64,000 bases of DNA from positions 2,336-66,335 of the forward strand of contig CALHZK010000011.1 of NCBI GenBank assembly GCA_938040655.1. Direction: 5' to 3'. The notes below the pieces were generated by a model that was given only the letters and a program-made list of their open reading frames with translations, searched no databases and was not told the DNA's origin. The position numbers and the translations under genes are program-made. Shown here piece after piece: positions 33,630 to 49,546 of this stretch (position 1 is its first letter; each line of letters starts with the position of its first letter). The stretch is from an uncultured Candidatus Saccharibacteria bacterium. GTDB lineage: Bacteria; Patescibacteriota; Saccharimonadia; Saccharimonadales; Saccharimonadaceae.

Positions 33630-34379
33630 TTAGTAAATCGAGGCGCGGATAATCGAGTACTCGATCTTATATTTAGCTGGGTCTAGGCCGACAGATTTGA
33701 TCCAGTCGTTGATTTCCTTTTTGTATCCCTCGACAGCCGCTGCAGGGTCGCTACGCTCGTCTGCGCCGCTGGTCTCGATTCTGGCTTTGAGTGTGTTAGA
33801 TTGGCTGTCATAGGTGATTTTGTATGACAAAGTCTCTTTTGGTAAGAATTGTAGGATTGGGTCGTTTTCGCCGTGTGTCTCGCTAAACATGTCGTGACAT
33901 TTGAAGTTTTTGTAAATGACATCAGCTTGGTCGGGGCACGATACTACCGTGCCCCACTCGTCGACATTTGTTTGATTGTTGTGGTTTTGTGCCCACTGGT
34001 AGGAGACTTTGTATGACTGCTGTAGCTTGGCGCTATCGACAATAAAGCGCACTGTATGGACGCCGTTTTTATCGTCGTACTTCTGCGAGAAGCTATTCTG
34101 CCTGATGGTCAAGTCGGTGACATCTTTGCCAGCAATCGGTTGTTTGAGATTTTGGTTAATTGTCTTTAGTAAATCGTTCTCAATATATTGGACAGTTCGG
34201 CGGTCACTCGGTTTACCGCGAGTCAGTTCGCTGAGATTCTTGATAGTCACGGCATCGCCAAACGGATTACTCGGGTAGAAGAATCGGTAGACCAGAAAGC
34301 TGATACTCGCGATCAACAAGATGATAATCACGCTGAGCGCTGCTTTTGCTTTCTTATCAAGGGCAGCGAACTGATTCAT
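33630..34379 (-). CDS. bitopic membrane protein, last gene of the T4SS-like operon (a VirB8/TcpC-like role is a guess)
   Basis: N-terminal TM segment plus a roughly 200-aa external domain. The start is 2 nt from the upstream stop. Confidence 0.4.
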   Translation of the reverse strand: MNQFAALDKKAKAALSVIIILLIASISFLVYRFFYPSNPFGDAVTIKNLSELTRGKPSDRRTVQYIENDLLKTINQNLKQPIAGKDVTDLTIRQNSFSQKYDDKNGVHTVRFIVDSAKLQQSYKVSYQWAQNHNNQTNVDEWGTVVSCPDQADVIYKNFKCHDMFSETHGENDPILQFLPKETLSYKITYDSQSNTLKARIETSGADERSDPAAAVEGYKKEINDWIKSVGLDPAKYKIEYSIIRASIY

Positions 34380-34380
34380 G

Positions 34381-35847
34381 CTACTTCACTTCTCCGTCGG
34401 CGATAAACTTTTGGATTTTTGCAGTGTCAACACTCGATGGGTAGGCAAATTCTTTTGGCACAACACCCTGCCAGACTTTCGGATCGTTCTTTTTGCCAAT
34501 CATCACATAGGCAGCACCATCACCCCATTTAGTGCCGCTTCCGGCACCTTTGGCGCCCTTTTGAGTGCCGGCGCTACAGCTCGCCTGGCCAACGATCACG
34601 GTATCGCCATGTACCCCTAGCACGATACCGGTGTGCCCAGCACCGCCATCTCCCCAGCTAAAGGTAGCGAAGGCTTTTGGCTCGCTGCCAGTCTTGGCAC
34701 CCTTAGCTCGCATGTTTTTCACGACGTCGACTCCGTTACCCATCCGGCCGGTGGTTGGTATGTCGGTAAAGGCGGCGTTGAAGAATTTAGAGAAAGTGAC
34801 GCAGTTGGAGCCGTGGCCACCACAGTAAGCCCAGTAGGCTGGGCCGGCCATTTTTCTGCTGTAGCCATTTTTGTTTGCCCCGTAGTTTTTAGCAAGTTGG
34901 ATGGCCTGCTCTTTGGTGAGGCCCTGGCTGGAGACTGGCCCACTCGGGTTTGATTGGTTGTTGTCGCTATTTTCAGGGGTACAATTGGTCGTGCCGTCGG
35001 TACTCTGAGGACTAATCTTACCACGTAATGATGCATACATAACGAAAGCACCGTGGTCAGCATTGGCCGGGGTTTTGAGCGGCCCGTAATCGCGTTTCAC
35101 TTGCCCCCACTTAGAGTTTACGCCATTCTTTTCGTTGCCACCGATGTACGGTTCTCGCTTGGCATCAGCCTTGTTCATCACGTAGGGCGACCCCTCGCCG
35201 ATTTCTGCCTGCTCTTCTGAAAAGCCGAGAGCTCGTGCCTGCTCCTTATATCTTTTGGAAGTTCCGTTATACGCGAAGAAAGTGTATTTTATTGCCTTTT
35301 CATCGCCCTTCTTTAGGGCGTTTGCATATTTTCCAGCTTTTCCTAAAAGGAACTGGGCAGCCCTATCTGTCTGGCGCTGAAATTCCTGATCGCTCACTTT
35401 AAGTCCCGGAGGATAAGGACCACCCTCCTTGCCGACAAATTGGTAGATTCCCTGGTCGTTCGTTGTTGGATTTGCTTTTTTTAGGCCAGACTCTCGCTTG
35501 TGGACCACCGCCAGCATCTCCCAGGGGATACCGACTTTATCGGCGGCTGATTTATAGACTGGCGCGTTGGCCCGAATTGTTTCGAGCTCCTTTTTGTTAA
35601 AGACCTCTCGGTTTAAGTAATCAAGGCTGGCCTTGATAGCGTTTCCCAGTACATTCCCGGCGGTCTCTGGTGAGATGTCGGTTGTCTCTGAGCCGACCGA
35701 GCAGACCTCGTCGTCTGGTTTGTAGTAGAGGATGTCATTTGATGAATAAAAATCCTCGTTAAAGCTGCTTTTCGCCATGGTCATATACGGCATTAGCACC
35801 GCTATAGCACAGGCGATAGTAATAATTTGATATAGTTTTGCCTTCAT
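34381..35847 (-). CDS. secreted two-domain peptidoglycan hydrolase: lytic-transglycosylase-like + CHAP
   Basis: It has a signal peptide. HKRESGL...GIYQF resembles the SLT catalytic Glu-Ser and GxxQ motifs. The C-terminal NCVTFSKFF...GHTGIVLG...D pattern fits the CHAP Cys-His arrangement. Confidence 0.7.
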   Translation of the reverse strand: MKAKLYQIITIACAIAVLMPYMTMAKSSFNEDFYSSNDILYYKPDDEVCSVGSETTDISPETAGNVLGNAIKASLDYLNREVFNKKELETIRANAPVYKSAADKVGIPWEMLAVVHKRESGLKKANPTTNDQGIYQFVGKEGGPYPPGLKVSDQEFQRQTDRAAQFLLGKAGKYANALKKGDEKAIKYTFFAYNGTSKRYKEQARALGFSEEQAEIGEGSPYVMNKADAKREPYIGGNEKNGVNSKWGQVKRDYGPLKTPANADHGAFVMYASLRGKISPQSTDGTTNCTPENSDNNQSNPSGPVSSQGLTKEQAIQLAKNYGANKNGYSRKMAGPAYWAYCGGHGSNCVTFSKFFNAAFTDIPTTGRMGNGVDVVKNMRAKGAKTGSEPKAFATFSWGDGGAGHTGIVLGVHGDTVIVGQASCSAGTQKGAKGAGSGTKWGDGAAYVMIGKKNDPKVWQGVVPKEFAYPSSVDTAKIQKFIADGEVK

Positions 35848-36296
35848 GGGTTACTCCTCCTCTGTCGTTTGGCATCGACGGACTTACTATTGAGCGTATA
35901 GGTGATAGTGTACGTAGTATCGCCAATGGTGACGCGAAAGGACTGAGTGTCACCAAGCGTATCTGTTGACAGATCAGAAATCGCCCCGTTGATAAACTCG
36001 GGCGTTTGTTTGTGGTCTGTCGTATAATCATCAAGCAGTGAATTAACCAGGTGGTTTTGCGTTTCGGTATCCATAGTTGTAGATAGCGAGCGGCCCTGGT
36101 TATCTTGGGTATCCCAGCCAGATAATACAAGTGTTTTTTCCTCTGGTGAGCCAGCACCGCCAGTTGGGCCGGTATAGTTGTCGTTACCTCGGAATGGATT
36201 GAACATGAAGATAATCACCGCCACGATCAACACCAATAATACTACAGTGCTTATGATGATAACTGCTCGTCGATGTGTGCGTAAAAACTGCTGCAT
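35844..36296 (-). CDS. small bitopic membrane protein of the T4SS-like operon
   Basis: 150 aa with an N-terminal TM segment. It overlaps both neighbours, by 1 nt upstream and 4 nt downstream. Confidence 0.5.
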   Translation of the reverse strand: MQQFLRTHRRAVIIISTVVLLVLIVAVIIFMFNPFRGNDNYTGPTGGAGSPEEKTLVLSGWDTQDNQGRSLSTTMDTETQNHLVNSLLDDYTTDHKQTPEFINGAISDLSTDTLGDTQSFRVTIGDTTYTITYTLNSKSVDAKRQRRSNP

Positions 36297-39200
36297 TAGT
36301 TTGCCCTCTTAACGATCCACATACCACGGGTACCGCTATCCTGGCCAAAATAGAATTGGCCTGGTTTAAACCCTTCATCGCTGGTGGTGCGTTTGCGGCT
36401 GGCTGGGTCGCCGACCAAGAAATTGCCGTCGCTGGTCTTGCCACGAATCACCAGGATGTGCCCGCCGTTGGTGAACGGTGTTTTTTGCCTGACTGATATC
36501 AACACCAGCCCACCCTGGTCAAGGCCGCGAGTCGCATTGTCGGCACTTGGCTGAACTTTCTCAAAGGTGACACCATAATTATTTTTGAAATAATGGCTTT
36601 GGTCTTGCCAGATCCACTTTGAGCCACAATCTGGTAACTGCCCCTTTAGCTGGACAAAGGTATCAGCCATTTGCTTTGGTGTGACCTTTTTATCAGGGTT
36701 GAGCGCGCTGATGATACTGGCAACTGATGTCGGGCCACAGCCGCATTCATTGATCGAGCCAGAGCCGTAGCGCTGTGACTTCCATGGATCTTCTACCTGG
36801 TAGTACATACTTTCTTTAAGGTTTGATGGATTGCCCGGTGTACCGGATTGAGGTGTTGTTTGCTCATCGCCTTCTTCGTCTTCACCGTTGGTCGACTGGG
36901 CAATTTGGAAATCAACCAAGAAAACAGACATAGCCGAGACCGCCCGAGCGTCTTTCAATTTTTCAGGGTTTTTGAGCGGTGCATCATTTTCGCCGGCGCC
37001 ATCTTTGAGAGTGTCGCTACTACAGACGCTCTTACCCTCGCCCTTGTTGACGCACTCAGTTTTGACCTTTCGCTTCAAGAGGTCATTTGAGCCGTCGTCG
37101 ACCATACAGCCAGCGGCGCTGAACAGATAGTCACCGCTACTGGCATCGCTACAACTGGTGATGTAATCAGCCAGTGGCGAGTCTTCCTTGATATAACTAC
37201 CGATCAGCTCATCAACCGTCGCACCATCTGGCACGTCGGCGTCAGGATTAATCCACCCTTCACGTGCCAATATATCGATCGCTTCCTCGGTGCTCATCGC
37301 ATCTTGACCAGGGGTGATACCAGTACACGGGAGGCCTGCCATGTTGATACCTGGGGTCGCATCGCGGCCATCGACGACCGTCTCGAGGCCAAAGTTGCTG
37401 GCGTAATTACAGTATTGCTGGTTAAAGCCAACCGCTGCACCGGCGGTCGACGGCGATAATGCCATCGCCGGCAAACGGAAGAGGTTGCTGGCCATCGACG
37501 CCAACGATGTATTGTAGGTGCCGCTAGCCAACATCGTATTTTGCATCGATGAGACAATACTCCCCAAAAATGTGTATTGGCTTGAGGTGTCAAACGGACT
37601 CAGTGAGGCAATATCCATCTCGCGCTGGAACTTCTCGTTCTCGGCCTTGATATTGTTGAAGGCCTTGACATCATTGCGCCGCAGCACTGGGATGTGCCGA
37701 GCCATGCTGCCAGAAGAGAAGAAGGCAGCGGCTGAAGTACCTAAGACATCCCCTAGCTCACGGCCGCGGGCCTTTGGTAGGTCATCATTTTTGGCGATTT
37801 CGGTGATAGCCTTTTCGACTGTCTCACCCAGCAGGTCCTTCGTAATTTCGCCGACAATCTCTGACACTACCCAGTTAGCGATTAACCCAAGCAGCCCACC
37901 GGTCGCCACACTCGCCACGACCGAGGCGGTCATCGCTGAATACATAGCAGCGGGGCTGAGGATCGCATTACACTCGGTCTCGCTGGCATCGGTGACTTTC
38001 TTTGAGGCTTTGACTAGCTTATTGTTGAGTGCACCATTACCAGGGGCATATTTTTTTGACAGGCCGACTTTACCTTTGTTGACGCCGATTGCTGCTAGCA
38101 AAATCGCTGAATCAAGTGCCGAACCAACATTGCCATCATTATCTTTGGTCCGCTCAGTTAGTATGTTTCCTGCTGCCTCGGCATCTTTCGCGCTGAAACC
38201 GCTGCCGTCGCCAGCCGCCTTCGCCTTAGACCCTGGTGACAAGATAAAGTCCATCACAAACGGCATAAGTTGCGCGAGCTGAACTGCCGCCACCCCAGCG
38301 GCAATATATTGCGGTAGCTTTGCAGCGGTACAACTTGATGCAGCGATAAAGTAAGCTGTACCACCTTTCTTCAGCTTCCCTAAATTCGCCTCAACCTTGC
38401 TCTTGACCTTGCCGGTGATACCAGAGGCTTTTTCGCTCAGTTTTGGTATACTTTCTTTGTATTTAGCCAGGCGTTCCTTGGCCGAGCCCTTGAGTTTCGA
38501 TAATGCATTGCCATTGCGGTTTAAACGAAATACGTTGTAGAATTTCTTCTTGATATATTTACCGCGCCAGGCTCGAAACCGCATATTAAAGGCGCCGGCT
38601 CGCCCCAACACCTTGGCGGCCAGCTCTCGATTCTCTGACTGGGTCAGATAGCCGGTCAGATCCTTGGCCTTGACATTAATTGGCGGCTTGCCATCGCCCT
38701 TGTCGATAGTATAAAACGCAGGGTTCTTCTCTGGGTAGCCGATTCGCTTGGTATCCATTCGCTCGCCGTTTGCAGTATGAGCGACCACACCCTTTTTGGA
38801 TAATTTGCGTAGGGCATGGTTGGAAATTCGGCCCATTTTACACTTAACCTTATGAGCTTTACAGAGGTCAGGGTTGGTCATGTGCTTGAACACTCGCATA
38901 AATCGGCGCTCCATGACCGGGCTCGCGGAGTCATTGTGAAGATTGAGATTACTCGTCAGGCCAATCAGCATAGTGAAAAAGGCGAACGTTCCGCCCAAGA
39001 AGGTGGCGCCAAAGCCAAATATCGCCAGCCCGCCGAGTATCCCACCTCGTTTCTTGAGAGTAGAGGTAATTTTGTTCTGTTTTTTTGACTGACGTGGTGA
39101 ATAGAGATTCTGAGCGGTATTTTCTCGCTGCTTGAGGGTGTCTTGAGCGGTTTGGTCGGGAGATTGACTCCGGGCGTTGTCGTCACGATAGCCTGCCTCG

Positions 39201-39322
39201 ATCTGATCCCACTGGGCCTGCTCACGGGCGTCGAGCGGTTTATCAGTATACATGTCTGAAGAAGGATCGGCCGGATTAAGCCGGTCGTCTGCTCTGTCAT
39301 CCGTTTTATAACTCAACGCCAT
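36296..39322 (-). CDS. 1008-aa membrane protein with C-terminal papain-fold (peptidase C39-like) domain
   Basis: Several TM segments (around residues 95-125, 330-360 and 470-500). The C-terminal 170 aa contain NECGCGPTSVASII and GGHILVIRG, the Cys and His motifs of C39-like peptidases. Confidence 0.6.
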   Translation of the reverse strand: MALSYKTDDRADDRLNPADPSSDMYTDKPLDAREQAQWDQIEAGYRDDNARSQSPDQTAQDTLKQRENTAQNLYSPRQSKKQNKITSTLKKRGGILGGLAIFGFGATFLGGTFAFFTMLIGLTSNLNLHNDSASPVMERRFMRVFKHMTNPDLCKAHKVKCKMGRISNHALRKLSKKGVVAHTANGERMDTKRIGYPEKNPAFYTIDKGDGKPPINVKAKDLTGYLTQSENRELAAKVLGRAGAFNMRFRAWRGKYIKKKFYNVFRLNRNGNALSKLKGSAKERLAKYKESIPKLSEKASGITGKVKSKVEANLGKLKKGGTAYFIAASSCTAAKLPQYIAAGVAAVQLAQLMPFVMDFILSPGSKAKAAGDGSGFSAKDAEAAGNILTERTKDNDGNVGSALDSAILLAAIGVNKGKVGLSKKYAPGNGALNNKLVKASKKVTDASETECNAILSPAAMYSAMTASVVASVATGGLLGLIANWVVSEIVGEITKDLLGETVEKAITEIAKNDDLPKARGRELGDVLGTSAAAFFSSGSMARHIPVLRRNDVKAFNNIKAENEKFQREMDIASLSPFDTSSQYTFLGSIVSSMQNTMLASGTYNTSLASMASNLFRLPAMALSPSTAGAAVGFNQQYCNYASNFGLETVVDGRDATPGINMAGLPCTGITPGQDAMSTEEAIDILAREGWINPDADVPDGATVDELIGSYIKEDSPLADYITSCSDASSGDYLFSAAGCMVDDGSNDLLKRKVKTECVNKGEGKSVCSSDTLKDGAGENDAPLKNPEKLKDARAVSAMSVFLVDFQIAQSTNGEDEEGDEQTTPQSGTPGNPSNLKESMYYQVEDPWKSQRYGSGSINECGCGPTSVASIISALNPDKKVTPKQMADTFVQLKGQLPDCGSKWIWQDQSHYFKNNYGVTFEKVQPSADNATRGLDQGGLVLISVRQKTPFTNGGHILVIRGKTSDGNFLVGDPASRKRTTSDEGFKPGQFYFGQDSGTRGMWIVKRAN

Positions 39323-39347
39323 AACGCTATATTCCTATTATACTCTA

Positions 39348-42136: not shown

Positions 42137-43048
42137 TTATCGTAATGGAATTACGATCTCGTCCTCCTCTTTTTTGATGCGCTTCGCCTCTCGCTGGAGC
42201 GACTCAACCGAGCGATCGCTGTGATTGCGTGCTAAATCCATTATAGCAGGTGAAACAGCTTGTTGACGAATAGATTTTTGATTACCTGGCCGAATATCAC
42301 TGATAGGCTGCAAAACAGCTTGCCGCATTGTTGGGTATGGGTCTATCTGCAATTTTGGCTCTGGCTCCTCTGTTGTGGCTGGCTGGCTCGACTTCTTTGG
42401 CGCACTGGCCTGGCGATTGTCAGCTACGTTTGGCTGCGGTTGAGGTGTGCCTGCACTACTACCGTGCTTCATCTTCTCGATCATCTCTTGCCGGCGCTTC
42501 ATGTCAGCCTTGTTGATCAGGCTATCGATCTGCCGCGATGTCGAGTTATTATCGTCCAGCATGTCATTGACGTTTTGTGCCTCATTATAAATCTCCACCT
42601 GCATCGAACTATTCGGGCTGTTGACGCCTCGCACCGACCACCCTCGACTATCAACCAGATTTGCCAAGTAGGACAACCGCCGCTGCACTTCTGCCTGGTC
42701 ATACCCCTTACCGTACTGGCGCTCCTCAACCTTCGGCGCAACCACCTCGACCATCGTCTCGATACCGTCAGAGTACCACAACCGCCGTTTTGGCTTGACG
42801 ATGAAGGAAATCACCGCTGCGAGATACACCTCCATCGGCTGATCTTTGCGAAGTGGGAGTGCCAACGCGGCAAAAAACAGCGCAATCGGCAGCGGGATAA
42901 TCGCCAGTGGCAAAAATATCTGAGATAGCATATAAGCAAGCCCAAGCATCATCACCATGATGAGCAAGAAAATAAACTGCTTGAAGCTAAACGGCCCTAA
43001 TAGCTTATCGTCCGCTTCGACGTCTTGAGGAACTTTGTATACAGCCAT
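42137..43048 (-). CDS. PrgI-family (VirB3-like) membrane protein with long C-terminal extension
   Basis: The N-terminus MAVYKVPQDVEADDKLLGPFSFKQFIFLL plus two TM helices matches the PrgI/TcpE-type pattern. It sits two genes upstream of virB4. Confidence 0.55.
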   Translation of the reverse strand: MAVYKVPQDVEADDKLLGPFSFKQFIFLLIMVMMLGLAYMLSQIFLPLAIIPLPIALFFAALALPLRKDQPMEVYLAAVISFIVKPKRRLWYSDGIETMVEVVAPKVEERQYGKGYDQAEVQRRLSYLANLVDSRGWSVRGVNSPNSSMQVEIYNEAQNVNDMLDDNNSTSRQIDSLINKADMKRRQEMIEKMKHGSSAGTPQPQPNVADNRQASAPKKSSQPATTEEPEPKLQIDPYPTMRQAVLQPISDIRPGNQKSIRQQAVSPAIMDLARNHSDRSVESLQREAKRIKKEEDEIVIPLR

Positions 43049-43055
43049 TAGTTTT

Positions 43056-43082: not shown

Positions 43083-43115
43083 TTAATATAAAAGCGAATT
43101 TTGATTGATTGGGAG

Positions 43116-45980
43116 CTAATTTTTTCTATTATTTTTAGCTCCTTGTACAGACTTGAGACCCTTATCGATATTTGATTTTTGTTGATCTTCACTTCCTCTA
43201 ATAATCGCTTGGAATTTTTGTCGTTTATCATAACTTATTTCGCCTTGCAGATCAGCGGCAGACAGAACCGCTCGAGCTTGATCGACTGATATATAGTCTG
43301 ATTTTATATTATCACTAATTTGCTGAATAAGTTGTTCAGGGCTAAGCTTGCTGAATGCTTTTCTCATAGCGGCCTTGTCTGAACGTATTTGATCAAGAGT
43401 TTTACCATCTGGATTGTTGTAAATCCACTCGTCGACTGTAACGTCATTATTTTTGAGACCTTTCGCCATACCAGCTTCTTGTTTCACAGCTTCCATTACT
43501 GTTGGATTTGAAAGAGACTCTATATTTATTGTCTCATTAGTTCCTGCAAAAGTAAAACTTTCATCTCCACTACCTATCGCTCGGACAACACTATTGAACG
43601 CATCTTTTCCTGGTTTACCAGTCTTATCGGTTAATAGCTGAGTAGCAGCACGAGCCTTAATAGTATCTCCACTACGTGTTGCTTCAACAAGCGCTTTTTG
43701 GAGACGCCCAAGCTTTTGACTCTCAGGTACCCCTTGTACCAATCCGGCCATAGACTGCTCGACCATCTCCTCTTCCTCACGACGGACAATGCTTTGACCT
43801 ATAGCGGTAGATCTGTTAGCAAAGTTTCGAGCCGATGGAAGATGGCTTGCTACCCTATTAAAACCGCGGCTTGAGGCAGATTTTATATTTCGTGGGTTGA
43901 ATATACCACCTCTTCCACGATATGTACCGGCTTTGATTTGCTCATCTCGAAGTTTACGCTGCTGTTTCATATGTTGACCAAGCCGGCCAAGGCGTGAATT
44001 TTCTCCACGATTACGTGCCCAATTATCTAGCTTACCGCCAATACCACTGACAGCAGCGCCGAATCGACCAGTCGCATTTAGTGCTGACTTCAACAGAGGT
44101 AGTGTTGCAAATAATGGAGCAGTCCTCACCACAAGAGCAACTATATCGCCAAAATTCTTCTCAAGTGAGCTTTGAATAATGAATGCAGCCAGGCCGGACG
44201 CACCATACAAAACGCCAATAATAGGGTACAGCACCAAAAGCGAGAAGAACAAACTTTTCCATTTCTGGAATAACTTCTCGGTATTAGGTAGTAAATAGGC
44301 AGCAAAAGCTACTGGCGATATTGCGATGAGCAGCACAATAAGAGCTTGTCGCCCGATGAGAATTAATGTAATAAACAAGACGGCCATCAATCCCATTGGT
44401 AGCGCAATACCAAGCAGCGCCAATGCGGCAAACAATGCTGCTCCTGCCAAGGCTAAGACGGTGCCGACTGATGCTGCTGTTTGAAATGCAGATATCTGAC
44501 CACCACTCTCAATACTATTAACCCCACCGCCGATTTCAATACCATGGCTAAAGAAGCCATGGAGGTTTTTGCCTAGGATATTTGATACATCAACGGCTAT
44601 CTGACAAAGATAAATTGATATATTAACTAGCAGAGCTATCACTATGAGCCGAGGTAGCATTTTCTTGATACCATAATTACTAATACCAAGGTTTGTGATT
44701 TGAGAATAAATTATTATGATAAAGGCTATAACAAATAAACCATTGGCAATATTACGAAAACTGTCCCAGGCTGTTTTTAGGTTTGAGTCGGCTGTAATCT
44801 TTGGTTGCACTTGAAGGAAATTATCACCAATAAAATTAAAGGCGCCATCCATCAATTTACCCATATAAAGCATAAGTGGACAGATGATATATCCGACACC
44901 CTCTACGTTACAGGTGGTACCATTATTTTCATCGTCTTTTTTATTCTCTGACTTTGATTCTGGATTAATATTAGTCTTTTCTGCATTAAGACCTGCTTCA
45001 CAGGCAGCCTTTTCGTTGCCCGACTTAGAATTACAAATATTTTTGTTTTGAGAACTGTAACCCTGCTTACAGGATTCGAGGTCCTTTCCGGAGAACTTCT
45101 TTTCCGAGCAGAACTTTTCTGCACCTTCTTTTAACATAGCATCTAGATAGCCTTGGGCTGATCTATTAACTTTTTTTGCTGCATCAAAACAACCTATCGA
45201 ATTATTTACGGTGTCTGTATAAATCTCACGATCATAGGGATAAGCATAGTAATTACCATTATCTTTTGACTTCAAAGAGTAATATTTTTTGACTACCTTG
45301 TTACCGTCAACAGCATCAAATGATAAACGAGACTTGGTGTTACTCTTGTCAAACTCATCTTTCGACATAAGTTTACCTGTTGTACAGCCGTTGACGACAA
45401 TACTATGCCATTTGGTGTACTGAACTACAGGGTCTTTCTCGGCTAAAGCGTGGTCATATTTGGTTAATTTTTTCAGAGCATTAAAAAACTTCTGCTTTCG
45501 GTTGTTGGTGTTTTCTTGTGCAAAAGGCTTATCTGAAGAAAAGCAGCCAGCGCCTCCTTCTCTTGTGTAGCCCATGTTACAAAGCAGATCGACTCCATTA
45601 ATACCAAATCGTTGCATTGCTGCTTTTGCAAACTCATTAGAACCGTTATTGCATCCAAGTGTACGAGGAGGGTCTCCCGCTATAAAGGTAGAGTACGTAG
45701 ATATATAACCACCACCACCGTTAAAGAGGTTATTCCCTTTTAGCTTTTCTTCATCGGTGTGATTCCTCATTGCTGTTGCAAAACAATCACCCAGAACACT
45801 GGCATACTCATGAAACCAATACTTATCGTTTGGATTTAAACCATTGTAGTTTGTTTCTGCGCGCGAAGGGGTCGACTGCAGCAAACTGACAACTGGCGAG
45901 ATTAGCAAACCAAGAATAACCACAAACAAGACAAAGTTTTTCTTGAGACTCTTCTTTTGTTGCGTAAGACTAAAAAGCAT
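43116..45980 (-). CDS. 954-aa VirB6/TrbL-like polytopic protein with Cys-rich external N-domain and long cytoplasmic tail
   Basis: Signal peptide, a roughly 370-aa Cys-rich domain, then 6 or so TM helices (residues about 400-640), then a basic/charged tail. The coding sequence is markedly AT-rich. Confidence 0.5.
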   Translation of the reverse strand: MLFSLTQQKKSLKKNFVLFVVILGLLISPVVSLLQSTPSRAETNYNGLNPNDKYWFHEYASVLGDCFATAMRNHTDEEKLKGNNLFNGGGGYISTYSTFIAGDPPRTLGCNNGSNEFAKAAMQRFGINGVDLLCNMGYTREGGAGCFSSDKPFAQENTNNRKQKFFNALKKLTKYDHALAEKDPVVQYTKWHSIVVNGCTTGKLMSKDEFDKSNTKSRLSFDAVDGNKVVKKYYSLKSKDNGNYYAYPYDREIYTDTVNNSIGCFDAAKKVNRSAQGYLDAMLKEGAEKFCSEKKFSGKDLESCKQGYSSQNKNICNSKSGNEKAACEAGLNAEKTNINPESKSENKKDDENNGTTCNVEGVGYIICPLMLYMGKLMDGAFNFIGDNFLQVQPKITADSNLKTAWDSFRNIANGLFVIAFIIIIYSQITNLGISNYGIKKMLPRLIVIALLVNISIYLCQIAVDVSNILGKNLHGFFSHGIEIGGGVNSIESGGQISAFQTAASVGTVLALAGAALFAALALLGIALPMGLMAVLFITLILIGRQALIVLLIAISPVAFAAYLLPNTEKLFQKWKSLFFSLLVLYPIIGVLYGASGLAAFIIQSSLEKNFGDIVALVVRTAPLFATLPLLKSALNATGRFGAAVSGIGGKLDNWARNRGENSRLGRLGQHMKQQRKLRDEQIKAGTYRGRGGIFNPRNIKSASSRGFNRVASHLPSARNFANRSTAIGQSIVRREEEEMVEQSMAGLVQGVPESQKLGRLQKALVEATRSGDTIKARAATQLLTDKTGKPGKDAFNSVVRAIGSGDESFTFAGTNETINIESLSNPTVMEAVKQEAGMAKGLKNNDVTVDEWIYNNPDGKTLDQIRSDKAAMRKAFSKLSPEQLIQQISDNIKSDYISVDQARAVLSAADLQGEISYDKRQKFQAIIRGSEDQQKSNIDKGLKSVQGAKNNRKN

Positions 45981-46033
45981 AAGTACCCCTATTTAATCAC
46001 ATATAGGGGTACTTAGACAAGAAGATAATTTAT

Positions 46034-47287
46034 CTACAGTCTTGGGTCTTGTACAGGTTGTGCAGATACTAGATCTGGGTCTTTGTTTACACCGTCCTCG
46101 CTTGTCGGCAGAGCTACCTCTAATCTATATACACGACCATCACCAAGCTGTACAATGATAATGATGTGAGGAGTCTCTTTCTGTGAAGGCCCGTAAGGCT
46201 TTTGTTCTTCTTCTGTGCTAATAATAGTATATTCATGGAATCTACTACCTTCAGGTACATTTTTTGTATCTTCGGGGCATATTGCACTACGAACACCACC
46301 GTCTAATGTAGGATCTTTATCAAGCCTGTTCCCTTTGTTGTTTACCTCCTGCGTAACTTCACGTACCAATAGAAACCCAGCATCACTAGAAATACCATAG
46401 AAATACTTGGTTGCCCTGCTATCGTCTAGCTCGTTGTTGCAGCCAGGGGTTTCTTGGTTTTCCTTCTGTAGTGATGCCGCAAACCATACACTTCGATCAA
46501 GATCCTTCAAAACTTTATCGGCGATAGTATTCAGGGAGTCATTTGGTGAGATTCTGACTTCTTCGTCAGAGGATAAGTTTGCCCCAACCTTATTAGCTCT
46601 TTCTATGAACTCCTTTCTCATTTTTGCATTCATAACCCAATCACGCCATTTCGCTCTTGCTTCATGAGATTGACTGTTATAGTTGGCTCTGTCGCTTCCT
46701 CCTACCTTCACTGACATACCCTCTAGACTTGTCACAGTTCCTAGAGGCATTGGCTCTCGATATGAATCAAGGCTTTTATGTACTGTTGCGGTTTCGCCGC
46801 CTGGTGTAGGATAGTCGGTCGATGCTGCATCAGGGCTCTCGGTTGAGTCCGCAGAGTCTTCTGGAGACGTTGTAGTTTCCTCTGGGTATGGGCTAGGACT
46901 GAATTCTGTGGTAGTTGTATCCCCTCCTGTTGGTGTCGCCTCACCATTAGCTTGTTCTGTCATACAGCGTGTTATACCTACAAAGCCTGCAAGGGCAAGG
47001 GCAACTGCTGCTAATCCCTTGAAAGCCCCCTTCTTTATAGCTTCACCAGCTGTTCCTTGTTTTCCTTTCCAGAAGTCCCAAGGTTTTTTATCTGGCTGGT
47101 CGCTCCCTGTTTCTGGCGGTGTAAATGTATCTGACGACTGTTTCTCTTGATCACTTGGGTTGTTGTCTGGGTCGTAAGACTTTGACCCTTTTTCTATCTC
47201 AGACATAACGCTTGGGATCCTTTCTCCGGCTGGCCGGATTTGCAATATTTGCCGTAAATTTAGGTACGGGTCGCGTATTGACCCCAA
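46034..47287 (-). CDS. bitopic hypothetical protein with acidic Thr/Ser/Pro-rich stalk
   Basis: The track start is a TTG at 47287, and the ATG at 47206 (MSEIEKG) is equally plausible. It has a single TM segment, an acidic linker and an external globular domain. Confidence 0.5.
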   Translation of the reverse strand: MGSIRDPYLNLRQILQIRPAGERIPSVMSEIEKGSKSYDPDNNPSDQEKQSSDTFTPPETGSDQPDKKPWDFWKGKQGTAGEAIKKGAFKGLAAVALALAGFVGITRCMTEQANGEATPTGGDTTTTEFSPSPYPEETTTSPEDSADSTESPDAASTDYPTPGGETATVHKSLDSYREPMPLGTVTSLEGMSVKVGGSDRANYNSQSHEARAKWRDWVMNAKMRKEFIERANKVGANLSSDEEVRISPNDSLNTIADKVLKDLDRSVWFAASLQKENQETPGCNNELDDSRATKYFYGISSDAGFLLVREVTQEVNNKGNRLDKDPTLDGGVRSAICPEDTKNVPEGSRFHEYTIISTEEEQKPYGPSQKETPHIIIIVQLGDGRVYRLEVALPTSEDGVNKDPDLVSAQPVQDPRL

Positions 47288-47365: not shown

Positions 47366-47443
47366 TGGCGCGCCCGACCGGATTCGAACCGGCGATCTCC
47401 TCCGTGACAGGGAGGCGTGATAGGCCAACTTCACTACGAGCGC
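47366..47443 (-). tRNA. tRNA-Asp (anticodon GTC), CCA encoded
   Basis: Reverse-complement cloverleaf with acceptor GCGCTCG/CGGGCGC, anticodon stem CCTCC/GGAGG with loop CTGTCAC, and T-loop GGTTCGAATCC. Confidence 0.9.
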
Positions 47444-47492
47444 AAACTACCTCGTATGGTAGCAGAATAGCGGCTGTTTTTCAAGGGAGTGT

Positions 47493-47521
47493 TTGCATTT
47501 TTGTCGCCACTATTTTACAAT
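47493..47521 (+). promoter_or_regulatory. sigma70-type promoter for the pilin-like gene array
   Basis: TTGCAT (47493-47498), a 17-nt spacer, then TACAAT (47516-47521), 18 nt before the ATG at 47540. Confidence 0.55.
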
Positions 47522-47539: not shown

Positions 47540-47920
47540 ATGAAAAAAAGAAAGAATAGTCATTTTCTGTATCCGCTTGTTTTTTGCCTATCGGTGGCTG
47601 GGTTTGGTTTGTTTCAGGCAAGGCCAGCCGTGGCGGCTTCTTGCGGCGGGGTACAGACTACAATAGTGAACTGCGAAGGCAAAGGTAAAGACGCGCTTCT
47701 CGATATTATCAAAACAGCCATTAAGCTTTTAACTGCCGGTATCGGTATTCTGGCTGTCGGTGCGGTAGTGTTTGGTGGTATTTTGTACTCATCGGCCGGT
47801 GGATCGGTTGATAATATTCGGCGGGCAAAAAATATTTGGATCAATACAGCAATTGGGCTGATTCTTTTCGCGTCTTTCGTGACTGTTACAAATTTTCTTA
47901 TTCCAGGGGGGATATTTTGA
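47540..47920 (+). CDS. VirB2/TrbC-like T4SS pilin candidate, paralog 1
   Basis: Signal peptide, a Cys pair, then two hydrophobic helices joined by the polar loop GGILYSSAGGSVDNIRRAKN. Confidence 0.6.
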   Translation: MKKRKNSHFLYPLVFCLSVAGFGLFQARPAVAASCGGVQTTIVNCEGKGKDALLDIIKTAIKLLTAGIGILAVGAVVFGGILYSSAGGSVDNIRRAKNIWINTAIGLILFASFVTVTNFLIPGGIF

Positions 47921-48345
47921 TGATCAAGCGCTATATAGTTGCGACGATGGTAATGATTTCGGTAATTACAGGCTCAGCACTGATGGTTTCGCCCTCGGCC
48001 CAGGCGGCGGCAAACTGTCCGAGTGGGCGTATTCTGACGCTGAAGCCGTGGTACGATGGCCTGCTTGACAACAGTTGTGTTGTCAAGAGTCCTGGGACAA
48101 CAACTGAGGAACACTCCAAATTTATTTGGACAATCGTCCTTAATGTAATTGATGATTTGTTTCAGGTTATTGGCTATATTGCGACTGGATTTATTATCTA
48201 CGGTGGCTTTTTATTCATGACAACCAGTGGCGATCCGGCGAGGGCTGCCCAGGCGAGGAAGACACTTCTCTATGCGGTGATTGGTGTGGTGATTGCTATT
48301 GCCTCGGTTGGGGTGATTAATCTTGTGTCAGGGGCGGTCTTATGA
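47920..48345 (+). CDS. VirB2/TrbC-like T4SS pilin candidate, paralog 2
   Basis: Start taken at ATG 47920, which overlaps the upstream TGA by 1 nt. Signal peptide, a Cys pair, and the loop GGFLFMTTSGDPARAAQARK between two TM helices. Confidence 0.6.
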   Translation: MIKRYIVATMVMISVITGSALMVSPSAQAAANCPSGRILTLKPWYDGLLDNSCVVKSPGTTTEEHSKFIWTIVLNVIDDLFQVIGYIATGFIIYGGFLFMTTSGDPARAAQARKTLLYAVIGVVIAIASVGVINLVSGAVL

Positions 48346-48647
48346 TGGTCGCATATATTTATTATATTTCGGCTCAGTTGTTTAAAGGAACAAAACCGGA
48401 TGATCTAGGGATTCCGGCTGAAAAAAATGTCAATTCACAGGTAGCAAGTATCCTCAACCTCGTGTATGCGATCGCTGGTATTGTTGCAGTGATTGTTATT
48501 ATTATTGCAGGTATTCAATATTCCCTGTCGACTGGTAATTCTCAGAAGGTATCGAAAGCAAAGGACGCGATAATTTATTCGATGGTTGGTCTGGTTGTTG
48601 TCGCCAGCGCTTTTGCTATCACCAACTTTATTTTAGGGAGGATATAA
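48342..48647 (+). CDS. VirB2/TrbC-like pilin candidate, paralog 3 (no obvious signal peptide)
   Basis: ATGA overlap with the upstream gene. The loop AGIQYSLSTGNSQKVSKAKD lies between two TM helices. Confidence 0.55.
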   Translation: MMVAYIYYISAQLFKGTKPDDLGIPAEKNVNSQVASILNLVYAIAGIVAVIVIIIAGIQYSLSTGNSQKVSKAKDAIIYSMVGLVVVASAFAITNFILGRI

Positions 48648-48652
48648 TCACG

Positions 48653-49066
48653 ATGAAGAGATTTTTTGTTGCTATTGCTGCGGTCGTCTACGGCATAAGC
48701 GTGCTGGCGGGGCCATCAGCCGGCGCCGTCAGTATCTATAAAGCTTGCACCGGTAATGATAACAGTACAGTCTGCGCCAGCCGGGGTGATAATGTATACA
48801 ATGTGATCCGCAACGTCATCAATGTATTGCTGGCACTGGTTGGTATCATCGCGGTGATTATGATTATCATTGGCGGTATCAAGTATGTGACCTCAAACGG
48901 TGACCCGCAATCAGTCAAGTCCGCTAAAGACACCGTACTCTACGCAGTGATTGGTTTAGTGGTGGCGATTTGTGCGCTGGCGATTGTCAACTTTACGGTC
49001 GATCGATTCCTCAAAAGGTCAGCCCCGTCGCAGCGGCCGGCTCCAGAGGGCCGACCACGCGTCTGA
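48653..49066 (+). CDS. VirB2/TrbC-like T4SS pilin candidate, paralog 4
   Basis: GGGAGG Shine-Dalgarno sequence, a signal peptide, a Cys pair, the loop GGIKYVTSNGDPQSVKSAKD, and a basic Pro-rich tail. Confidence 0.6.
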   Translation: MKRFFVAIAAVVYGISVLAGPSAGAVSIYKACTGNDNSTVCASRGDNVYNVIRNVINVLLALVGIIAVIMIIIGGIKYVTSNGDPQSVKSAKDTVLYAVIGLVVAICALAIVNFTVDRFLKRSAPSQRPAPEGRPRV

Positions 49067-49091
49067 TAGCGTAGTCAAATCAAACAACTCG

Positions 49092-49100
49092 TGCTATAAT
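49092..49100 (+). promoter_or_regulatory. extended -10 element (TGCTATAAT) ahead of pilin paralog 5
   Basis: A perfect TGnTATAAT lies in the 78-nt gap between paralogs 4 and 5. The -35 region is only weak. Confidence 0.45.
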
Positions 49101-49144
49101 GGCGCTAAACAATAGTTTTTGTGAAGAAAGGACATATAGGAAAT

Positions 49145-49546
49145 ATGAAACAACTAAAAACAATAGTGGCTGCAGCGCTGATTGTCCCGACGTTGGCCCT
49201 CGGACTGACGGCGGTATTGCCAGGAGCAAATGTGAGTGCGCAATCAAACGGCAAAGGACTCAATGAATATAGAGATGTTGCAAAGCCTAACGATGTTCCT
49301 ACCGACCTCGCTGGTAAAGGAGGTGTGATTACACAGGTTATTAACTTCTTATTGTTTGCAATTGGCATTATATCAGTGGTCATGATTATTATTGGCGGTA
49401 TTCGCTATACAACCTCAAATGGTGATAGCAACAAAGTGACGGCCGCCAAAAACACCGTCATGTACGCAGTGATCGGTTTGGTGATCGCTATCTTTGCCTA
49501 TGCGATCGTCAACTTCGTGGTAGAAAAAGCATCAACTAATAGCTAA
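49145..49546 (+). CDS. VirB2/TrbC-like T4SS pilin candidate, paralog 5
   Basis: Start taken at ATG 49145 (the track GTG at 49121 is possible). Signal peptide and the loop GGIRYTTSNGDSNKVTAAKN between two TM helices. Confidence 0.6.
   Translation: MKQLKTIVAAALIVPTLALGLTAVLPGANVSAQSNGKGLNEYRDVAKPNDVPTDLAGKGGVITQVINFLLFAIGIISVVMIIIGGIRYTTSNGDSNKVTAAKNTVMYAVIGLVIAIFAYAIVNFVVEKASTNS

What the first reader, a model, noticed from the sequence alone, without database searches (positions are those of the whole stretch)
33630..49546. T4SS-like machine with VirB4 as sole ATPase and no coupling protein, relaxase, VirB11 or integrase
Ten minus-strand genes (47287 down to 33630) are packed with 1-4 nt overlaps or gaps of at most 70 nt. 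The set comprises a bitopic stalk protein and a VirB6/TrbL-like 954-aa protein. Next come a PrgI/VirB3-like protein, a 306-aa coupled protein and VirB4 (GAGKS Walker A, DEAW Walker B). Then follow a 1008-aa membrane protein with a C39-like domain, a 150-aa bitopic protein, an SLT+CHAP hydrolase and a 249-aa bitopic protein. Five VirB2-like genes are transcribed divergently. This is the monoderm minimal T4SS parts list. Everything that would make it a conjugation module is missing from the 64 kb: VirD4/TcpA-type coupling ATPase, relaxase, oriT-like nick region and integrase. Two functional readings are open. One is a ComB-like DNA-uptake device, with comFC only 0.8 kb beyond the pilin array. 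The other is a contact-dependent apparatus directed at a host cell, as would suit an epibiotic CPR bacterium. Either would be poorly characterised biology.
Basis: partly seen in the sequence, partly recalled or inferred. Interest (0 to 1): 0.85.

Follow-up and report, generated by a model that had tools for sequence, protein, structure and literature searches.

The report
Known Saccharibacteria type IV secretion locus
This is the chromosomal type IV secretion gene cluster that all Saccharibacteria (tiny bacteria living on other bacteria) carry next to their replication origin; it is real and biologically intriguing, but it has already been described and shown to be essential in a cultured relative, so the finding is not new.

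Summary
A tightly packed minus-strand operon of nine genes (not ten) lies at 33630-47287. Five VirB2-like pilin genes are transcribed divergently at 47540-49546. The 619-aa protein is a bona fide VirB4. No coupling ATPase, relaxase, VirB11 or integrase occurs anywhere in the 64 kb.

The locus is not an unrecognised machine. It is the conserved, origin-proximal chromosomal T4SS of Saccharibacteria. It has the same gene order as SEML1_0004-0019 of Southlakia epibionticum ML1, where Tn-seq showed it is required for epibiotic growth (Wang 2023, Cell). A phylum-wide survey (Quinonero-Coronel 2025) reported its MPF-FATA ancestry, TrsD/PrgI/VirB6 partners, pilin arrays, missing relaxase, dnaA/dnaN proximity and comF neighbourhood.

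"VirB4 as sole ATPase" is shown only for this window. ML1 encodes a TraG/TraD-like ATPase 113 kb from the locus.

- A natural 898-aa fusion shows the 306-aa gene is the split-off VirB4 N-domain.
- VirB4 is 85-94% identical across species, more conserved than DnaA, while the surface parts diverge beyond recognition.
- The cell-wall hydrolase domains are swapped between species on a conserved scaffold.

Function remains unknown; host-directed translocation is most likely.

The parts
33630..34379 (-). 249-aa bitopic protein, last gene of the operon. It has an N-terminal TM helix and two small extracytoplasmic domains. It is the positional and length equivalent of SEML1_0004.
   Evidence: ORF and single TM. 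There is no Pfam or NCBIfam hit. Only 3 homologues were found in the 5.8-billion-protein set. It is 35% identical to the positional orthologue in L079. The AF2 model has pLDDT 74.6. Foldseek against PDB gave nothing at E<=1e-3; weak hits include NTF2-like and VirB8 folds. The ML1 orthologue of 750 bp is called GD/ES/ES by Tn-seq.
34381..35847 (-). 488-aa secreted peptidoglycan hydrolase (VirB1-like). It has an N-terminal weak SLT/lysozyme-like region and a C-terminal CHAP cysteine peptidase.
   Evidence: CHAP PF05257 E=1.3e-6 at residues 345-419. SLT PF01464 E=0.049 at residues 99-143, below the cut-off. PcsB CHAP domain in PDB, E=6e-5. A signal-like N-terminus is seen. Positional orthologues carry Phage_lysozyme2 or Transglycosylase plus C39_2, CHAP or GDSL.
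35844..36296 (-). 150-aa bitopic protein of unknown fold
   Evidence: ORF; one strong TM at residues 12-30. No family hits. It is recognisable in only 2 of 48 related loci.
36296..39322 (-). 1008-aa membrane protein. It has a conserved N-terminal scaffold of about 800 aa of unknown fold and a C-terminal Peptidase_C39_2 (papain-like) domain.
   Evidence: PF13529 E=5.8e-12 at residues 845-974. Two to three hydrophobic segments. Only the N-terminal scaffold is conserved in relatives, at query residues 3-811/853. In orthologues the C-terminal domain is VanY/M15 or M23 instead. No PDB sequence match.
39348..41207 (-). VirB4 ATPase (619 aa), lacking the canonical N-terminal domain. Walker A is SGAGKS and Walker B is VDEAW.
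   Evidence: Pfam P-loop_TraG E=3.8e-29, plus AAA_10 and DUF87. NCBIfam NF045971 conju_CD1110 at 379.6 bits against a cut-off of 325, covering profile positions 174-751 of 752. PDB 4AG5 VirB4 C-terminal domain, E=1.8e-51. More than 8000 homologues, the top 120 at 89-100% identity and named Saccharibacteria.
41207..42127 (-). 306-aa soluble protein. It is the VirB4 N-terminal domain encoded as a separate, translationally coupled gene (TrsD-like).
   Evidence: It shares one nucleotide with the virB4 start. NCBIfam hits: TrsD E=8.8e-5, VirB4_plasma E=2.2e-5, CD1110 profile positions 1-100, and VirB4_CagE positions 19-136. The natural fusion P0279 (898 aa) aligns at residues 14-218 to this protein (36% identity, E=5e-39) and at residues 311-886 to the 619-aa VirB4 (49% identity). 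The gene is present and adjacent in 48 of 48 loci.
42137..43048 (-). 303-aa PrgI/VirB3-like membrane protein with a long hydrophilic C-terminal tail
   Evidence: PF12666 PrgI E=1.6e-11 at residues 5-90. Hydrophobic hairpin region at residues 26-65. Present in 48 of 48 loci, median 52% identity.
43116..45980 (-). 954-aa extended VirB6/TrbL-like polytopic protein. It has a signal/TM segment, a Cys-rich ectodomain of about 370 aa, a core of five or more TM helices, and a cytoplasmic tail of about 320 aa.
   Evidence: The window copy matches PF04610 TrbL only at E=0.21, but across profile positions 25-203 of 215. 17 of 32 orthologues hit PF04610, best E=3.2e-6, and no other family is matched by more than 2. 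Topology. Only the TM core (residues about 335-700) is conserved. No PDB sequence match.
46034..47287 (-). First gene of the operon. It is a 417-aa ORF as listed; the probable true start is M28 at 47206, giving 390 aa. The protein is bitopic, with a cytoplasmic N-terminus, one TM helix, a Ser/Thr/Pro/Glu-rich linker and a variable C-terminal ectodomain.
   Evidence: ORF and TM at residues 87-105. Most homologues start at MSEIE. A promoter-like site at 47329-47300 lies upstream of the M28 start. Only 9 homologues exist in the large database, with the N-terminus and linker near-identical and the C-terminal domain 35-50% identical. No hit in 48 related loci. The AF2 model failed, pLDDT 37.
47366..47443 (-). 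tRNA-Asp (GTC), co-oriented with and just upstream of the T4SS operon. A terminator-like hairpin follows at 47356-47336.
   Evidence: ARAGORN and Rfam. Hairpin. The same tRNA occupies the same relative position in 28 of 46 related loci.
47540..47920 (+). VirB2-like T4SS pilin 1 (126 aa)
   Evidence: PF18895 E=2.6e-8. Signal peptide plus two hydrophobic helices. Promoter-like site at 47492-47521.
47917..48345 (+). VirB2-like pilin 2. It is 142 aa from the ATG that overlaps the pilin 1 stop; the longest ORF runs 47836-48345.
   Evidence: PF18895 E=5.3e-11; alignment.
48342..48647 (+). VirB2-like pilin 3 (101 aa, no obvious signal peptide)
   Evidence: PF18895 E=6.5e-14. TrbC/VirB2 PF04956 E=3.2e-5, below the cut-off.
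48653..49066 (+). VirB2-like pilin 4 (137 aa)
   Evidence: PF18895 E=5.9e-16. TrbC PF04956 at 28.6 bits, above the cut-off of 27.9.
49121..49546 (+). VirB2-like pilin 5 (141 aa). A strong bidirectional terminator hairpin follows at 49569-49595.
   Evidence: PF18895 E=8.8e-10; terminator. The pilins are 18-28% identical to pilin 1.
52250..52657 (-). An unannotated 165-aa membrane protein (51723-52220) lies downstream.
   Evidence: PF18895 E=5.1e-7; it aligns with the array pilins. ML1 has a comparable unlinked pilin, SEML1_0024, called non-essential.

Best explanation
The locus is this genome's copy of the conserved, vertically inherited, origin-proximal chromosomal type IV secretion system of Saccharibacteria (Patescibacteria). 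This system derives from monoderm MPF-FATA conjugation machinery. It has lost the DNA-processing module and gained VirB2-like pilins.

Shown here:
- A VirB4 ATPase split into two translationally coupled genes (306 aa and 619 aa).
- A PrgI/VirB3-like anchor.
- An extended VirB6-like polytopic protein.
- Two proteins carrying peptidoglycan-hydrolase domains.
- Three bitopic proteins.
- A divergent array of five pilin genes.

Inferred mechanism: the VirB4 hexamer docks on PrgI and VirB6 at the membrane. The bitopic proteins and the VirB6 ectodomain span the wall. The hydrolases open a passage through the epibiont's own wall, the host's wall, or both. VirB4 powers assembly of a VirB2-type filament or conduit at the contact site with the actinobacterial host. 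Substrates other than relaxase-bound DNA then pass through it. These are most likely proteins sent into the host, or possibly host molecules taken up. This supports the obligate epibiotic life style.
For: Identity of the parts.

Taxon and conservation:
- VirB4 is 85-94% identical in at least 567 species representatives, all among the best 80 being Saccharibacteria or Saccharimonadales.
- The gene order is conserved in the 48 full-length loci: pilins | bitopic | VirB6-like | PrgI | VirB4-N | VirB4 | hydrolase scaffold | hydrolase | bitopic | dnaN-dnaA-rnpA-yidC. dnaN is present in 47 and dnaA in 46 of them.
- tRNA-Asp is conserved at the operon head in 28 of 46 loci.

No DNA-transfer module: Pfam scans of the window, the P-loop scan and the absence of att-like repeats.

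Literature:
- The syntenic ML1 locus SEML1_0004-0019 is nearly all essential for growth on Actinomyces israelii. It has pilins and no recognisable relaxase or coupling protein in the cluster (PMC10633639).
- The phylum-wide description is in PMC12102498, and the system is reviewed in PMC12857230.

Pattern of evolution: the cytoplasmic motor is hyper-conserved. Median identities are VirB4 92%, VirB4-N 71%, DnaA 73% and DnaN 70%. The extracytoplasmic parts diverge beyond tblastn detection, and the hydrolase domains are swapped between species. This pattern fits a surface that meets a variable partner.
Against: - No substrate, effector or direction of transport is known. The literature calls the role 'completely unknown' (PMC11665869).
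- No clear VirB8-like component was identified here. The 249-aa fold search was inconclusive and the 417-aa model failed.
- The window's own VirB6-like and SLT matches are below the Pfam cut-offs.
- Whether the hydrolases act on the host wall or the epibiont's own wall is untested.
- Essentiality was shown in another species, not in this genome.
Confidence: 0.85

Rival explanations
1. ComB-like uptake device. The T4SS runs inward and imports DNA or nucleotides from the host or the medium. It would hand them to ComFC and ComEC, or bypass them, to feed a cell that cannot make nucleotides.
For: - A comFC-like gene lies 764 nt beyond the pilin array, as in ML1 (SEML1_0021).
- comF, recG and radA co-localise with the T4SS in the ABY1 class.
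- The H. pylori ComB precedent and this very hypothesis are voiced in PMC11665869.
- There is no relaxase or T4CP in the window.
Against: - In ML1, transformation is abolished by deleting comEC, yet comEC, comF and dprA are dispensable while the T4SS is essential. T4SS essentiality therefore does not run through the Com pathway (review).
- The comFC neighbour is separated from the pilins by a strong terminator and an opposite-strand hsp20 gene.
- The ComB system is a diderm VirB7/9/10-containing machine with no counterpart here.
Confidence: 0.1
2. Pilus-assembly or adhesion machine only. VirB4, VirB3 and VirB6 serve just to extract and polymerise VirB2-like pilins into an attachment filament. 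Nothing is translocated.
For: - There are five to six divergent pilin genes, and they are essential in ML1.
- VirB4 is the ATPase that drives pilus biogenesis in diderm systems (established knowledge of MPF-T and MPF-F systems).
- No T4CP is in the locus, and a T4CP is what normally recruits substrates.
Against: - Saccharibacteria already use two type IV pili and several adhesins for attachment.
- Two proteins with several wall-degrading domains and an extended VirB6 with a cytoplasmic tail of about 320 aa point to a channel, not only a fibre.
- T4CP-less effector T4SSs exist (Ptl, Brucella VirB).
Confidence: 0.12
3. Degenerate or partial conjugative element (ICE). Its relaxase, T4CP and integrase would lie outside the window.
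For: - VirB4 belongs to the CD1110 family typical of Firmicute ICEs.
- A tRNA gene abuts the operon.
- ML1 encodes a TraG/TraD-like ATPase elsewhere in its genome.
Against: - The locus sits between dnaN and housekeeping genes, with 33 kb and 14 kb of core genes on either side.
- Position and order are the same in 46-47 of 48 species.
- tRNA-Asp is conserved in place and has no duplicated 3' end.
- GC content is not distinct apart from the VirB6 ectodomain.
- Relaxases are found in only 103 Patescibacteria genomes and are rarely near virB4.
Confidence: 0.03

Closest known systems
T4SS of Candidatus Southlakia epibionticum ML1, SEML1_0004-0019 (Wang et al. 2023, Cell; PMC10633639)
   Same: The order and orientation match after dnaA-dnaN:
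- a 249-aa bitopic protein
- hydrolase(s)
- a membrane protein of about 1000-1100 aa with a C-terminal peptidase
- VirB4 and an overlapping upstream gene of about 300 aa
- PrgI and VirB6-like
- a divergent pilin array
- then hsp20 and comFC, plus an extra unlinked pilin

There is no relaxase or T4CP in the cluster.
   Different: - The window has no recF after dnaN.
- It has one VirB6-like gene instead of two large polytopic genes (0011, 0013).
- It has five array pilins instead of six.
- It has a 150-aa bitopic gene instead of the PEGA protein.
- The scaffold carries a C39-like domain instead of a DD-peptidase.
- The hydrolase is SLT-like plus CHAP, instead of two lysozyme-like domains plus a cysteine proteinase.
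- Essentiality is not tested in this organism.
Patescibacteria-clade T4SS as surveyed by Quinonero-Coronel et al. 2025 (PMC12102498)
   Same: - VirB4 is related to MPF-FATA.
- TrsD, PrgI/VirB3 and VirB6 sit next to virB4.
- VirB2 arrays of 2-11 divergent genes are present.
- The relaxase is absent and the T4CP is not nearby.
- The locus is close to dnaA, dnaN and rnpA.
   Different: Nothing of substance. The details added here are the fusion proof of the VirB4 split, the identity gradient, and the hydrolase-domain swapping on a conserved scaffold.
Monoderm conjugative T4SSs of MPF-FATA type (pCF10 Prg/Pcf, pIP501 Tra, CTn2/CD1110 family, pGO1 Trs)
   Same: The following have counterparts here:
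- VirB4 (PrgJ/TraE/CD1110)
- PrgI/VirB3
- PrgH/VirB6-type polytopic protein
- TrsD
- multidomain wall hydrolase (PrgK/TraG: SLT plus CHAP)
- bitopic scaffold proteins
   Different: - Those systems have a T4CP (PcfC/TraJ), a relaxase, oriT and surface adhesins. They have no VirB2 pilins and sit on mobile elements.
- This locus is chromosomal and core, has pilins, and lacks the DNA-processing module.
T4CP-less effector T4SSs (Bordetella Ptl, Brucella VirB) and the H. pylori ComB uptake system
   Same: They work without a VirD4-type coupling protein in the locus, have non-conjugative functions, and have VirB2-type pilins (and established knowledge).
   Different: Those are diderm MPF-T machines with a VirB7/9/10 outer-membrane core and, for Ptl and Brucella, VirB11. 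None of these parts is present here.

Membership tests
Patescibacteria/Saccharibacteria chromosomal T4SS | VirB4 of the Patescibacteria clade, related to MPF-FATA | tested here: met
   NF045971 CD1110-family at 379.6 bits against a cut-off of 325. PDB 4AG5 at E=1.8e-51. 85-100% identity to thousands of Saccharibacteria VirB4 proteins. No phylogenetic tree was built.
Patescibacteria/Saccharibacteria chromosomal T4SS | TrsD-like (VirB4 N-domain) gene adjacent to virB4 | tested here: met
   TrsD E=8.8e-5 and N-terminal VirB4 profile matches. Rosetta-stone fusion P0279. Adjacent in 48 of 48 loci.
Patescibacteria/Saccharibacteria chromosomal T4SS | PrgI/VirB3 and VirB6 homologues next to virB4 | tested here: met
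   PrgI PF12666 at 45 bits against a cut-off of 27. For VirB6, the window copy is sub-threshold (E=0.21), but 17 of 32 orthologues hit PF04610, down to E=3e-6.
Patescibacteria/Saccharibacteria chromosomal T4SS | Array of divergent VirB2-like pilin genes in the cluster | tested here: met
   Five tandem genes, all above the PF18895 cut-off, 18-28% identical to the first. A sixth lies 2.7 kb away.
Patescibacteria/Saccharibacteria chromosomal T4SS | Chromosomal core location near dnaA/dnaN, with no relaxase or T4CP in the neighbourhood | tested here: met
   dnaA at 30905-32272 and dnaN at 32526-33626 abut the operon. None of these genes is found in the 64 kb. Synteny holds in 46-47 of 48 species.
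Patescibacteria/Saccharibacteria chromosomal T4SS | Required for epibiotic growth on the host | not testable with these tools
   Shown only for the ML1 orthologues by Tn-seq.
Conjugative T4SS / ICE (MPF-FATA) | Relaxase and oriT | tested here: not met
   No relaxase family hit in any ORF of the window. oriT cannot be recognised without a relaxase family. The rest of the genome was not available.
Conjugative T4SS / ICE (MPF-FATA) | VirD4/TcpA-type coupling ATPase | tested here: not met
   The only P-loop genes in the window are Wzt, DnaA, VirB4 and an AAA_33 kinase. Genome-wide presence was not testable. ML1 has a TraG/TraD-like gene 113 kb from the locus.
Conjugative T4SS / ICE (MPF-FATA) | Integrase and flanking attachment repeats, variable genomic position | tested here: not met
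   No integrase Pfam hit. No flanking direct repeats or tRNA-Asp duplication. The position is fixed across species.
Diderm MPF-T T4SS (VirB/D4, ComB, Ptl) | VirB7/VirB9/VirB10 outer-membrane core, VirB5, VirB11 | tested here: not met
   No such family hits in the operon. Only VirB2-, VirB3-, VirB4-, VirB6- and VirB1-like parts are present.
VirB8/TcpC/PrgL-like scaffold (as a component) | Bitopic protein with an NTF2-like ectodomain | tested here: inconclusive
   For the 249-aa model (pLDDT 74.6), Foldseek gave no hit at E<=1e-3. PrgL, TraE, TraH and VirB8 appear only at E 0.2-0.6. The 417-aa model is unusable, pLDDT 37. In ML1 a different gene (SEML1_0012) is the one called NTF2-like, matching TraM 4EC6.

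The most novel reading that the evidence does not exclude
The apparatus may be a host-wall-breaching conduit whose specificity is set by exchangeable modules. A hyper-conserved VirB4/VirB3/VirB6 motor would be combined, species by species, with different peptidoglycan-cleaving domains (VanY/M15, M23, C39-like, CHAP, lysozyme-like), fast-evolving ectodomains and pilin sets. These would be matched to the cell-wall chemotype of the particular actinobacterial host. Through this conduit the epibiont would draw host cytoplasmic material inward, or inject effectors. The general idea of a conduit is already speculated in print. The modular hydrolase-swap reading as a host-range determinant is the part not seen in the papers read here.
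Probability: 0.2. Interest if true: 0.7.

Novelty: already known. Interest (0 to 1): 0.25.

Why it matters
The system matters biologically. It is the first T4SS reported to be essential for the bacterium that carries it. It is conserved across a huge uncultured radiation, and its substrate and direction of transport are unknown. The finding as submitted adds no new kind of system, because locus, composition, missing conjugation genes, genomic position and both proposed functions are all published.

The value of this window is as one more, slightly more compact, example: a single VirB6-like gene and a C39-like hydrolase module.
- the VirB4 split, shown by a natural fusion;
- the extreme conservation of the motor against the hypervariable surface parts;
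- the swapping of hydrolase domains on a conserved scaffold.

Tried and rejected
- **PDB sequence searches.** Searches with the 306-aa, 954-aa (single sequence and 32-sequence profile), 1008-aa and 303-aa proteins gave nothing meaningful.
- **249-aa structure.** The AF2 model of the 249-aa protein (4-sequence alignment, pLDDT 74.6) gave no significant Foldseek match in PDB. NTF2/VirB8-like folds appear only among weak hits, so I do not call it VirB8.
- **417-aa structure.** The AF2 model of the 417-aa protein failed (pLDDT 37), so no fold search was run on it.
- **Source contig.** The look-up of encoding contigs with the 100%-identical homologue P0124, tried in order to identify the source contig, returned nothing.
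- **Genome-wide T4CP or relaxase.** I could not scan the rest of the source genome.
- **DnaA boxes.** They are not enriched in the window (17 found against 14 expected). The 'origin-proximal' statement therefore rests on the rnpA/yidC | dnaA-dnaN gene order and on the literature.
- **ICE hypothesis.** Rejected on synteny and the lack of repeats.
- **C39-like domain as pilin-leader peptidase.** I considered this idea. It is not supported, because the pilins have ordinary Sec-type signal peptides and orthologues replace this domain with M15 or M23 wall hydrolases.

Full report
**1. Observation**

Nine minus-strand ORFs run from 47287 down to 33630. The junctions are +1, -4, -1, +25, -1, +9, +67 and +53 nt.

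Pfam confirms the following:
- CHAP in the 488-aa protein
- Peptidase_C39_2 at residues 845-974 of the 1008-aa protein
- P-loop_TraG, AAA_10 and DUF87 in the 619-aa protein
- PrgI at residues 5-90 of the 303-aa protein

The SLT call for the 488-aa protein is only a weak match (E=0.049). Walker A (SGAGKS) and Walker B (VDEAW) are present. A hydropathy scan supports three bitopic proteins, a polytopic 954-aa protein, and pilins with a signal peptide plus two helices. All five plus-strand ORFs between 47540 and 49546 exceed the Pfam cut-off for T4SS_pilin.

- tRNA-Asp at 47366-47443 (minus strand), between the operon and the pilins.
- A sixth pilin gene at 52250-52657 (minus strand).
- The 417-aa ORF probably starts at M28 (47206). 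Most homologues start there. A promoter-like site (47329-47300) and a terminator-like hairpin after the tRNA (47356-47336) lie upstream of it.

**2. What surrounds it**

Pfam scans of about 40 further ORFs show ordinary chromosome:
- a rhamnose/polysaccharide cluster in the first 28 kb
- jag-yidC-rnpA, followed by dnaA-dnaN
- then the T4SS operon, whose stop codon lies 3 nt from the dnaN stop
- on the other side hsp20, a comFC-like gene, rlmH, tRNAs, valS, femAB, tsaD and Mur ligases

No relaxase, VirD4/TraG-type ATPase, VirB11 or integrase was hit. The only real Walker-A genes in the 64 kb are Wzt, DnaA, VirB4 and an AAA_33 kinase. There are no att-like repeats; the only repeats are pilin paralogy.

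**3. Identity of the parts**

*VirB4.* The 619-aa protein passes the NCBIfam CD1110-family VirB4 model (379.6 bits, cut-off 325). It covers only profile positions 174-751 of 752. It also matches the Thermoanaerobacter VirB4 C-terminal domain in PDB (4AG5) at E=1.8e-51.

*Split VirB4.* The overlapping upstream 306-aa gene hits TrsD (E=8.8e-5) and the N-terminal parts of three VirB4 models. An exhaustive HMMER search found 2066 clusters of this family, mostly stand-alone proteins. One is an 898-aa protein, P0279. Its residues 14-218 align to the 306-aa protein (36% identity, E=5e-39). Its residues 311-886 align to the 619-aa VirB4 (49% identity). The two genes are therefore a split VirB4.

*VirB6-like.* The 954-aa protein itself is sub-threshold for TrbL/VirB6 (E=0.21, but across almost the whole profile). 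Of 32 orthologues, 17 hit PF04610 (best E=3e-6), and no other family recurs.

*Bitopic proteins.* The 249-aa, 150-aa and 417-aa proteins have no family. The 249-aa AF2 model (pLDDT 74.6) gave no significant PDB match. VirB8-family and other NTF2-like folds appear only at E 0.1-0.6. The 417-aa model failed.

**4. Taxon and synteny**

VirB4 has more than 8000 database relatives. The top 120 are 89-100% identical, and those with names are Candidatus Saccharibacteria. In the GTDB species set, at least 567 stretches encode a relative. The best 80 are nearly all Saccharibacteria, Saccharimonadales or Nanosynbacter, at 85-94% identity.

Presence and median identity in the 48 loci with full 10-kb flanks:

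| Gene | Present | Median identity |
|---|---|---|
| VirB4 | 48/48 | 92% |
| VirB4-N (306 aa) | 48/48 | 71% |
| PrgI | 48/48 | 52% |
| VirB6-like (TM core only) | 48/48 | 36% |
| Hydrolase scaffold (1008 aa) | 32/48 | 39% |
| DnaN | 47/48 | 70% |
| DnaA | 46/48 | 73% |
| 249-aa protein | 7/48 | 35% |
| 488-aa protein | 7/48 | 45% |
| 150-aa protein | 2/48 | 29% |
| 417-aa protein | 0/48 | not detected |

The gene order is the same in eight loci inspected. tRNA-Asp sits at the operon head in 28 of 46 loci. Many relatives carry two VirB6-like genes where the window has one. This is a vertically inherited core locus, not a mobile element.

**5. Comparison with the literature**

Wang et al. 2023 (PMC10633639) describe an 'apparent T4SS (SEML1_0006-0019)' in Southlakia epibionticum ML1. 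They report that it:
- is essential by Tn-seq
- most resembles Gram-positive conjugative systems
- has essential pilin genes in the cluster
- has no recognisable coupling or relaxase proteins

Their supplementary tables give the same gene order as the window. After dnaA, dnaN and recF come a 750-bp gene (the same length as the window's last gene), then hydrolases, VirB4, an overlapping 882-bp gene, PrgI and VirB6-like genes. Six pilins, hsp20 and comFC follow.

Quinonero-Coronel et al. 2025 (PMC12102498) report, phylum-wide:
- the MPF-FATA-related VirB4 clade
- TrsD, PrgI/VirB3 and VirB6 next to virB4
- peptidase and lysozyme genes downstream of virB4
- VirB2 arrays of 2-11 genes
- near-absence of relaxases
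- T4CP homologues encoded elsewhere in the genome
- proximity to dnaA, dnaN and rnpA
- the comF neighbourhood in the ABY1 class

A 2025 review covers the system. A 2024 perspective states that the role is completely unknown. It names both effector delivery and ComB-like nucleotide or DNA uptake as candidates. I found no later paper in the library that resolves the function.

**6. Mechanism**

*Shown:* the parts list, the coupling of the genes, and the conservation pattern.

*Inferred:* a VirB4 hexamer (N-domain supplied in trans) sits on PrgI and VirB6. Bitopic proteins and the VirB6 ectodomain cross the wall. Hydrolases open the peptidoglycan. The pilins form a filament or conduit to the host.

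The ComB-like reading is weakened by the ML1 genetics. Transformation needs comEC, yet comEC and comF are dispensable while the T4SS is essential.

'Sole ATPase' cannot be claimed beyond the window. ML1 encodes a TraD/TraG-like FtsK-fold protein, SEML1_0142, about 113 kb from the locus, and Table S1 lists it as essential.

- The fusion P0279 shows that the 306-aa gene and the 619-aa gene form a split VirB4.
- The motor is more conserved than DnaA and DnaN, while the surface parts are hypervariable. The 417-aa family is mosaic: its N-terminus and linker are near-identical, but its ectodomain is 35-50% identical.
- The roughly 1000-aa protein after VirB4 keeps its N-terminal scaffold, but its C-terminal domain varies. 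It is VanY/M15 in 4 loci, M23 in 5 loci, and C39-like in the window.
- The secreted hydrolase mixes a lysozyme, SLT or transglycosylase N-terminal domain with a C39, CHAP or GDSL C-terminal domain.

**8. Verdict**

The system is already known, so the finding as submitted carries low novelty. The underlying biological question, what this machine transports and in which direction, remains open.

Noticed in passing
window 52250-52657 (-) and 51723-52220 (-): A sixth VirB2-like pilin gene lies apart from the array, across the tRNA cluster. A 165-aa membrane protein with no family hit follows it. ML1 has a similar unlinked pilin (SEML1_0024) that is non-essential.
   Followed up: partly
window 36296-39322 vs L001, L007, L015, L026, L047, L054, L055, L069, L073 (gene just after virB4): The roughly 1000-aa membrane protein keeps an N-terminal scaffold of about 800 aa, but its C-terminal wall-hydrolase domain differs between species. 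It is VanY/M15 in four loci, M23 in five, and C39-like in the window. The C39-like domain is found on the neighbouring secreted hydrolase in L007, L055 and L073. This looks like cassette exchange of peptidoglycan-cleaving modules.
   Followed up: partly
window 39348-41207 vs 30905-33626, across 48 related loci: VirB4 is more conserved between Saccharibacteria species than DnaA or DnaN. Median identity is 92% (minimum 85%) for VirB4, 73% for DnaA and 70% for DnaN. The extracytoplasmic T4SS proteins in the same operon are often unrecognisable by tblastn.
   Followed up: partly
window 46034-47287 (-): The few homologues of the 417-aa protein are mosaic. The cytoplasmic N-terminus, the TM helix and the Ser/Thr/Pro-rich linker are almost identical, but the C-terminal ectodomain drops to 35-50% identity. 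This suggests recombination or diversifying selection on the exposed domain.
   Followed up: no
window 44001-46000: GC content dips to 0.40, against about 0.50 elsewhere. The dip lies over the Cys-rich ectodomain of the VirB6-like gene, which is also the part not conserved in relatives.
   Followed up: no
window 47366-47443 (-); L001, L008-L051 etc.: tRNA-Asp (GTC) lies between the pilin array and the T4SS operon, co-oriented with the operon. It is found there in 28 of 46 related loci. In the window it is followed by a terminator-like hairpin and a promoter-like site.
   Followed up: yes
window 33626-33630: The dnaN stop and the stop of the last T4SS gene are convergent and only 3 nt apart, with no room for a terminator. 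ML1 has recF between them, and the window does not.
   Followed up: no
L015 2610-8175, L026 2291-8127, L079 1476-8141: Many relatives carry two large VirB6-like polytopic genes upstream of PrgI, as ML1 does with SEML1_0011 and 0013. The window has only one.
   Followed up: partly
literature: SEML1_0142 of S. epibionticum ML1: Table S1 of Wang 2023 lists the TraD/TraG-like (T4CP-like) gene SEML1_0142 as ES/ES/ES. Quinonero-Coronel 2025 states that the ML1 t4cp homologue was not essential. The two may refer to different genes or criteria.
   Followed up: no
window 18404-20674 (+) within 1-28300: A 756-aa protein with six ChW (clostridial hydrophobic W) repeats sits inside a large gene cluster. 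The cluster encodes rhamnose synthesis, glycosyltransferases and a Wzm/Wzt-type ABC exporter for surface polysaccharide.
   Followed up: no
window 60248-61432 (+): A fusion of an AAA_33 kinase domain with a calcineurin-like phosphoesterase domain, resembling a polynucleotide kinase-phosphatase. It lies between two Mur-ligase genes.
   Followed up: no
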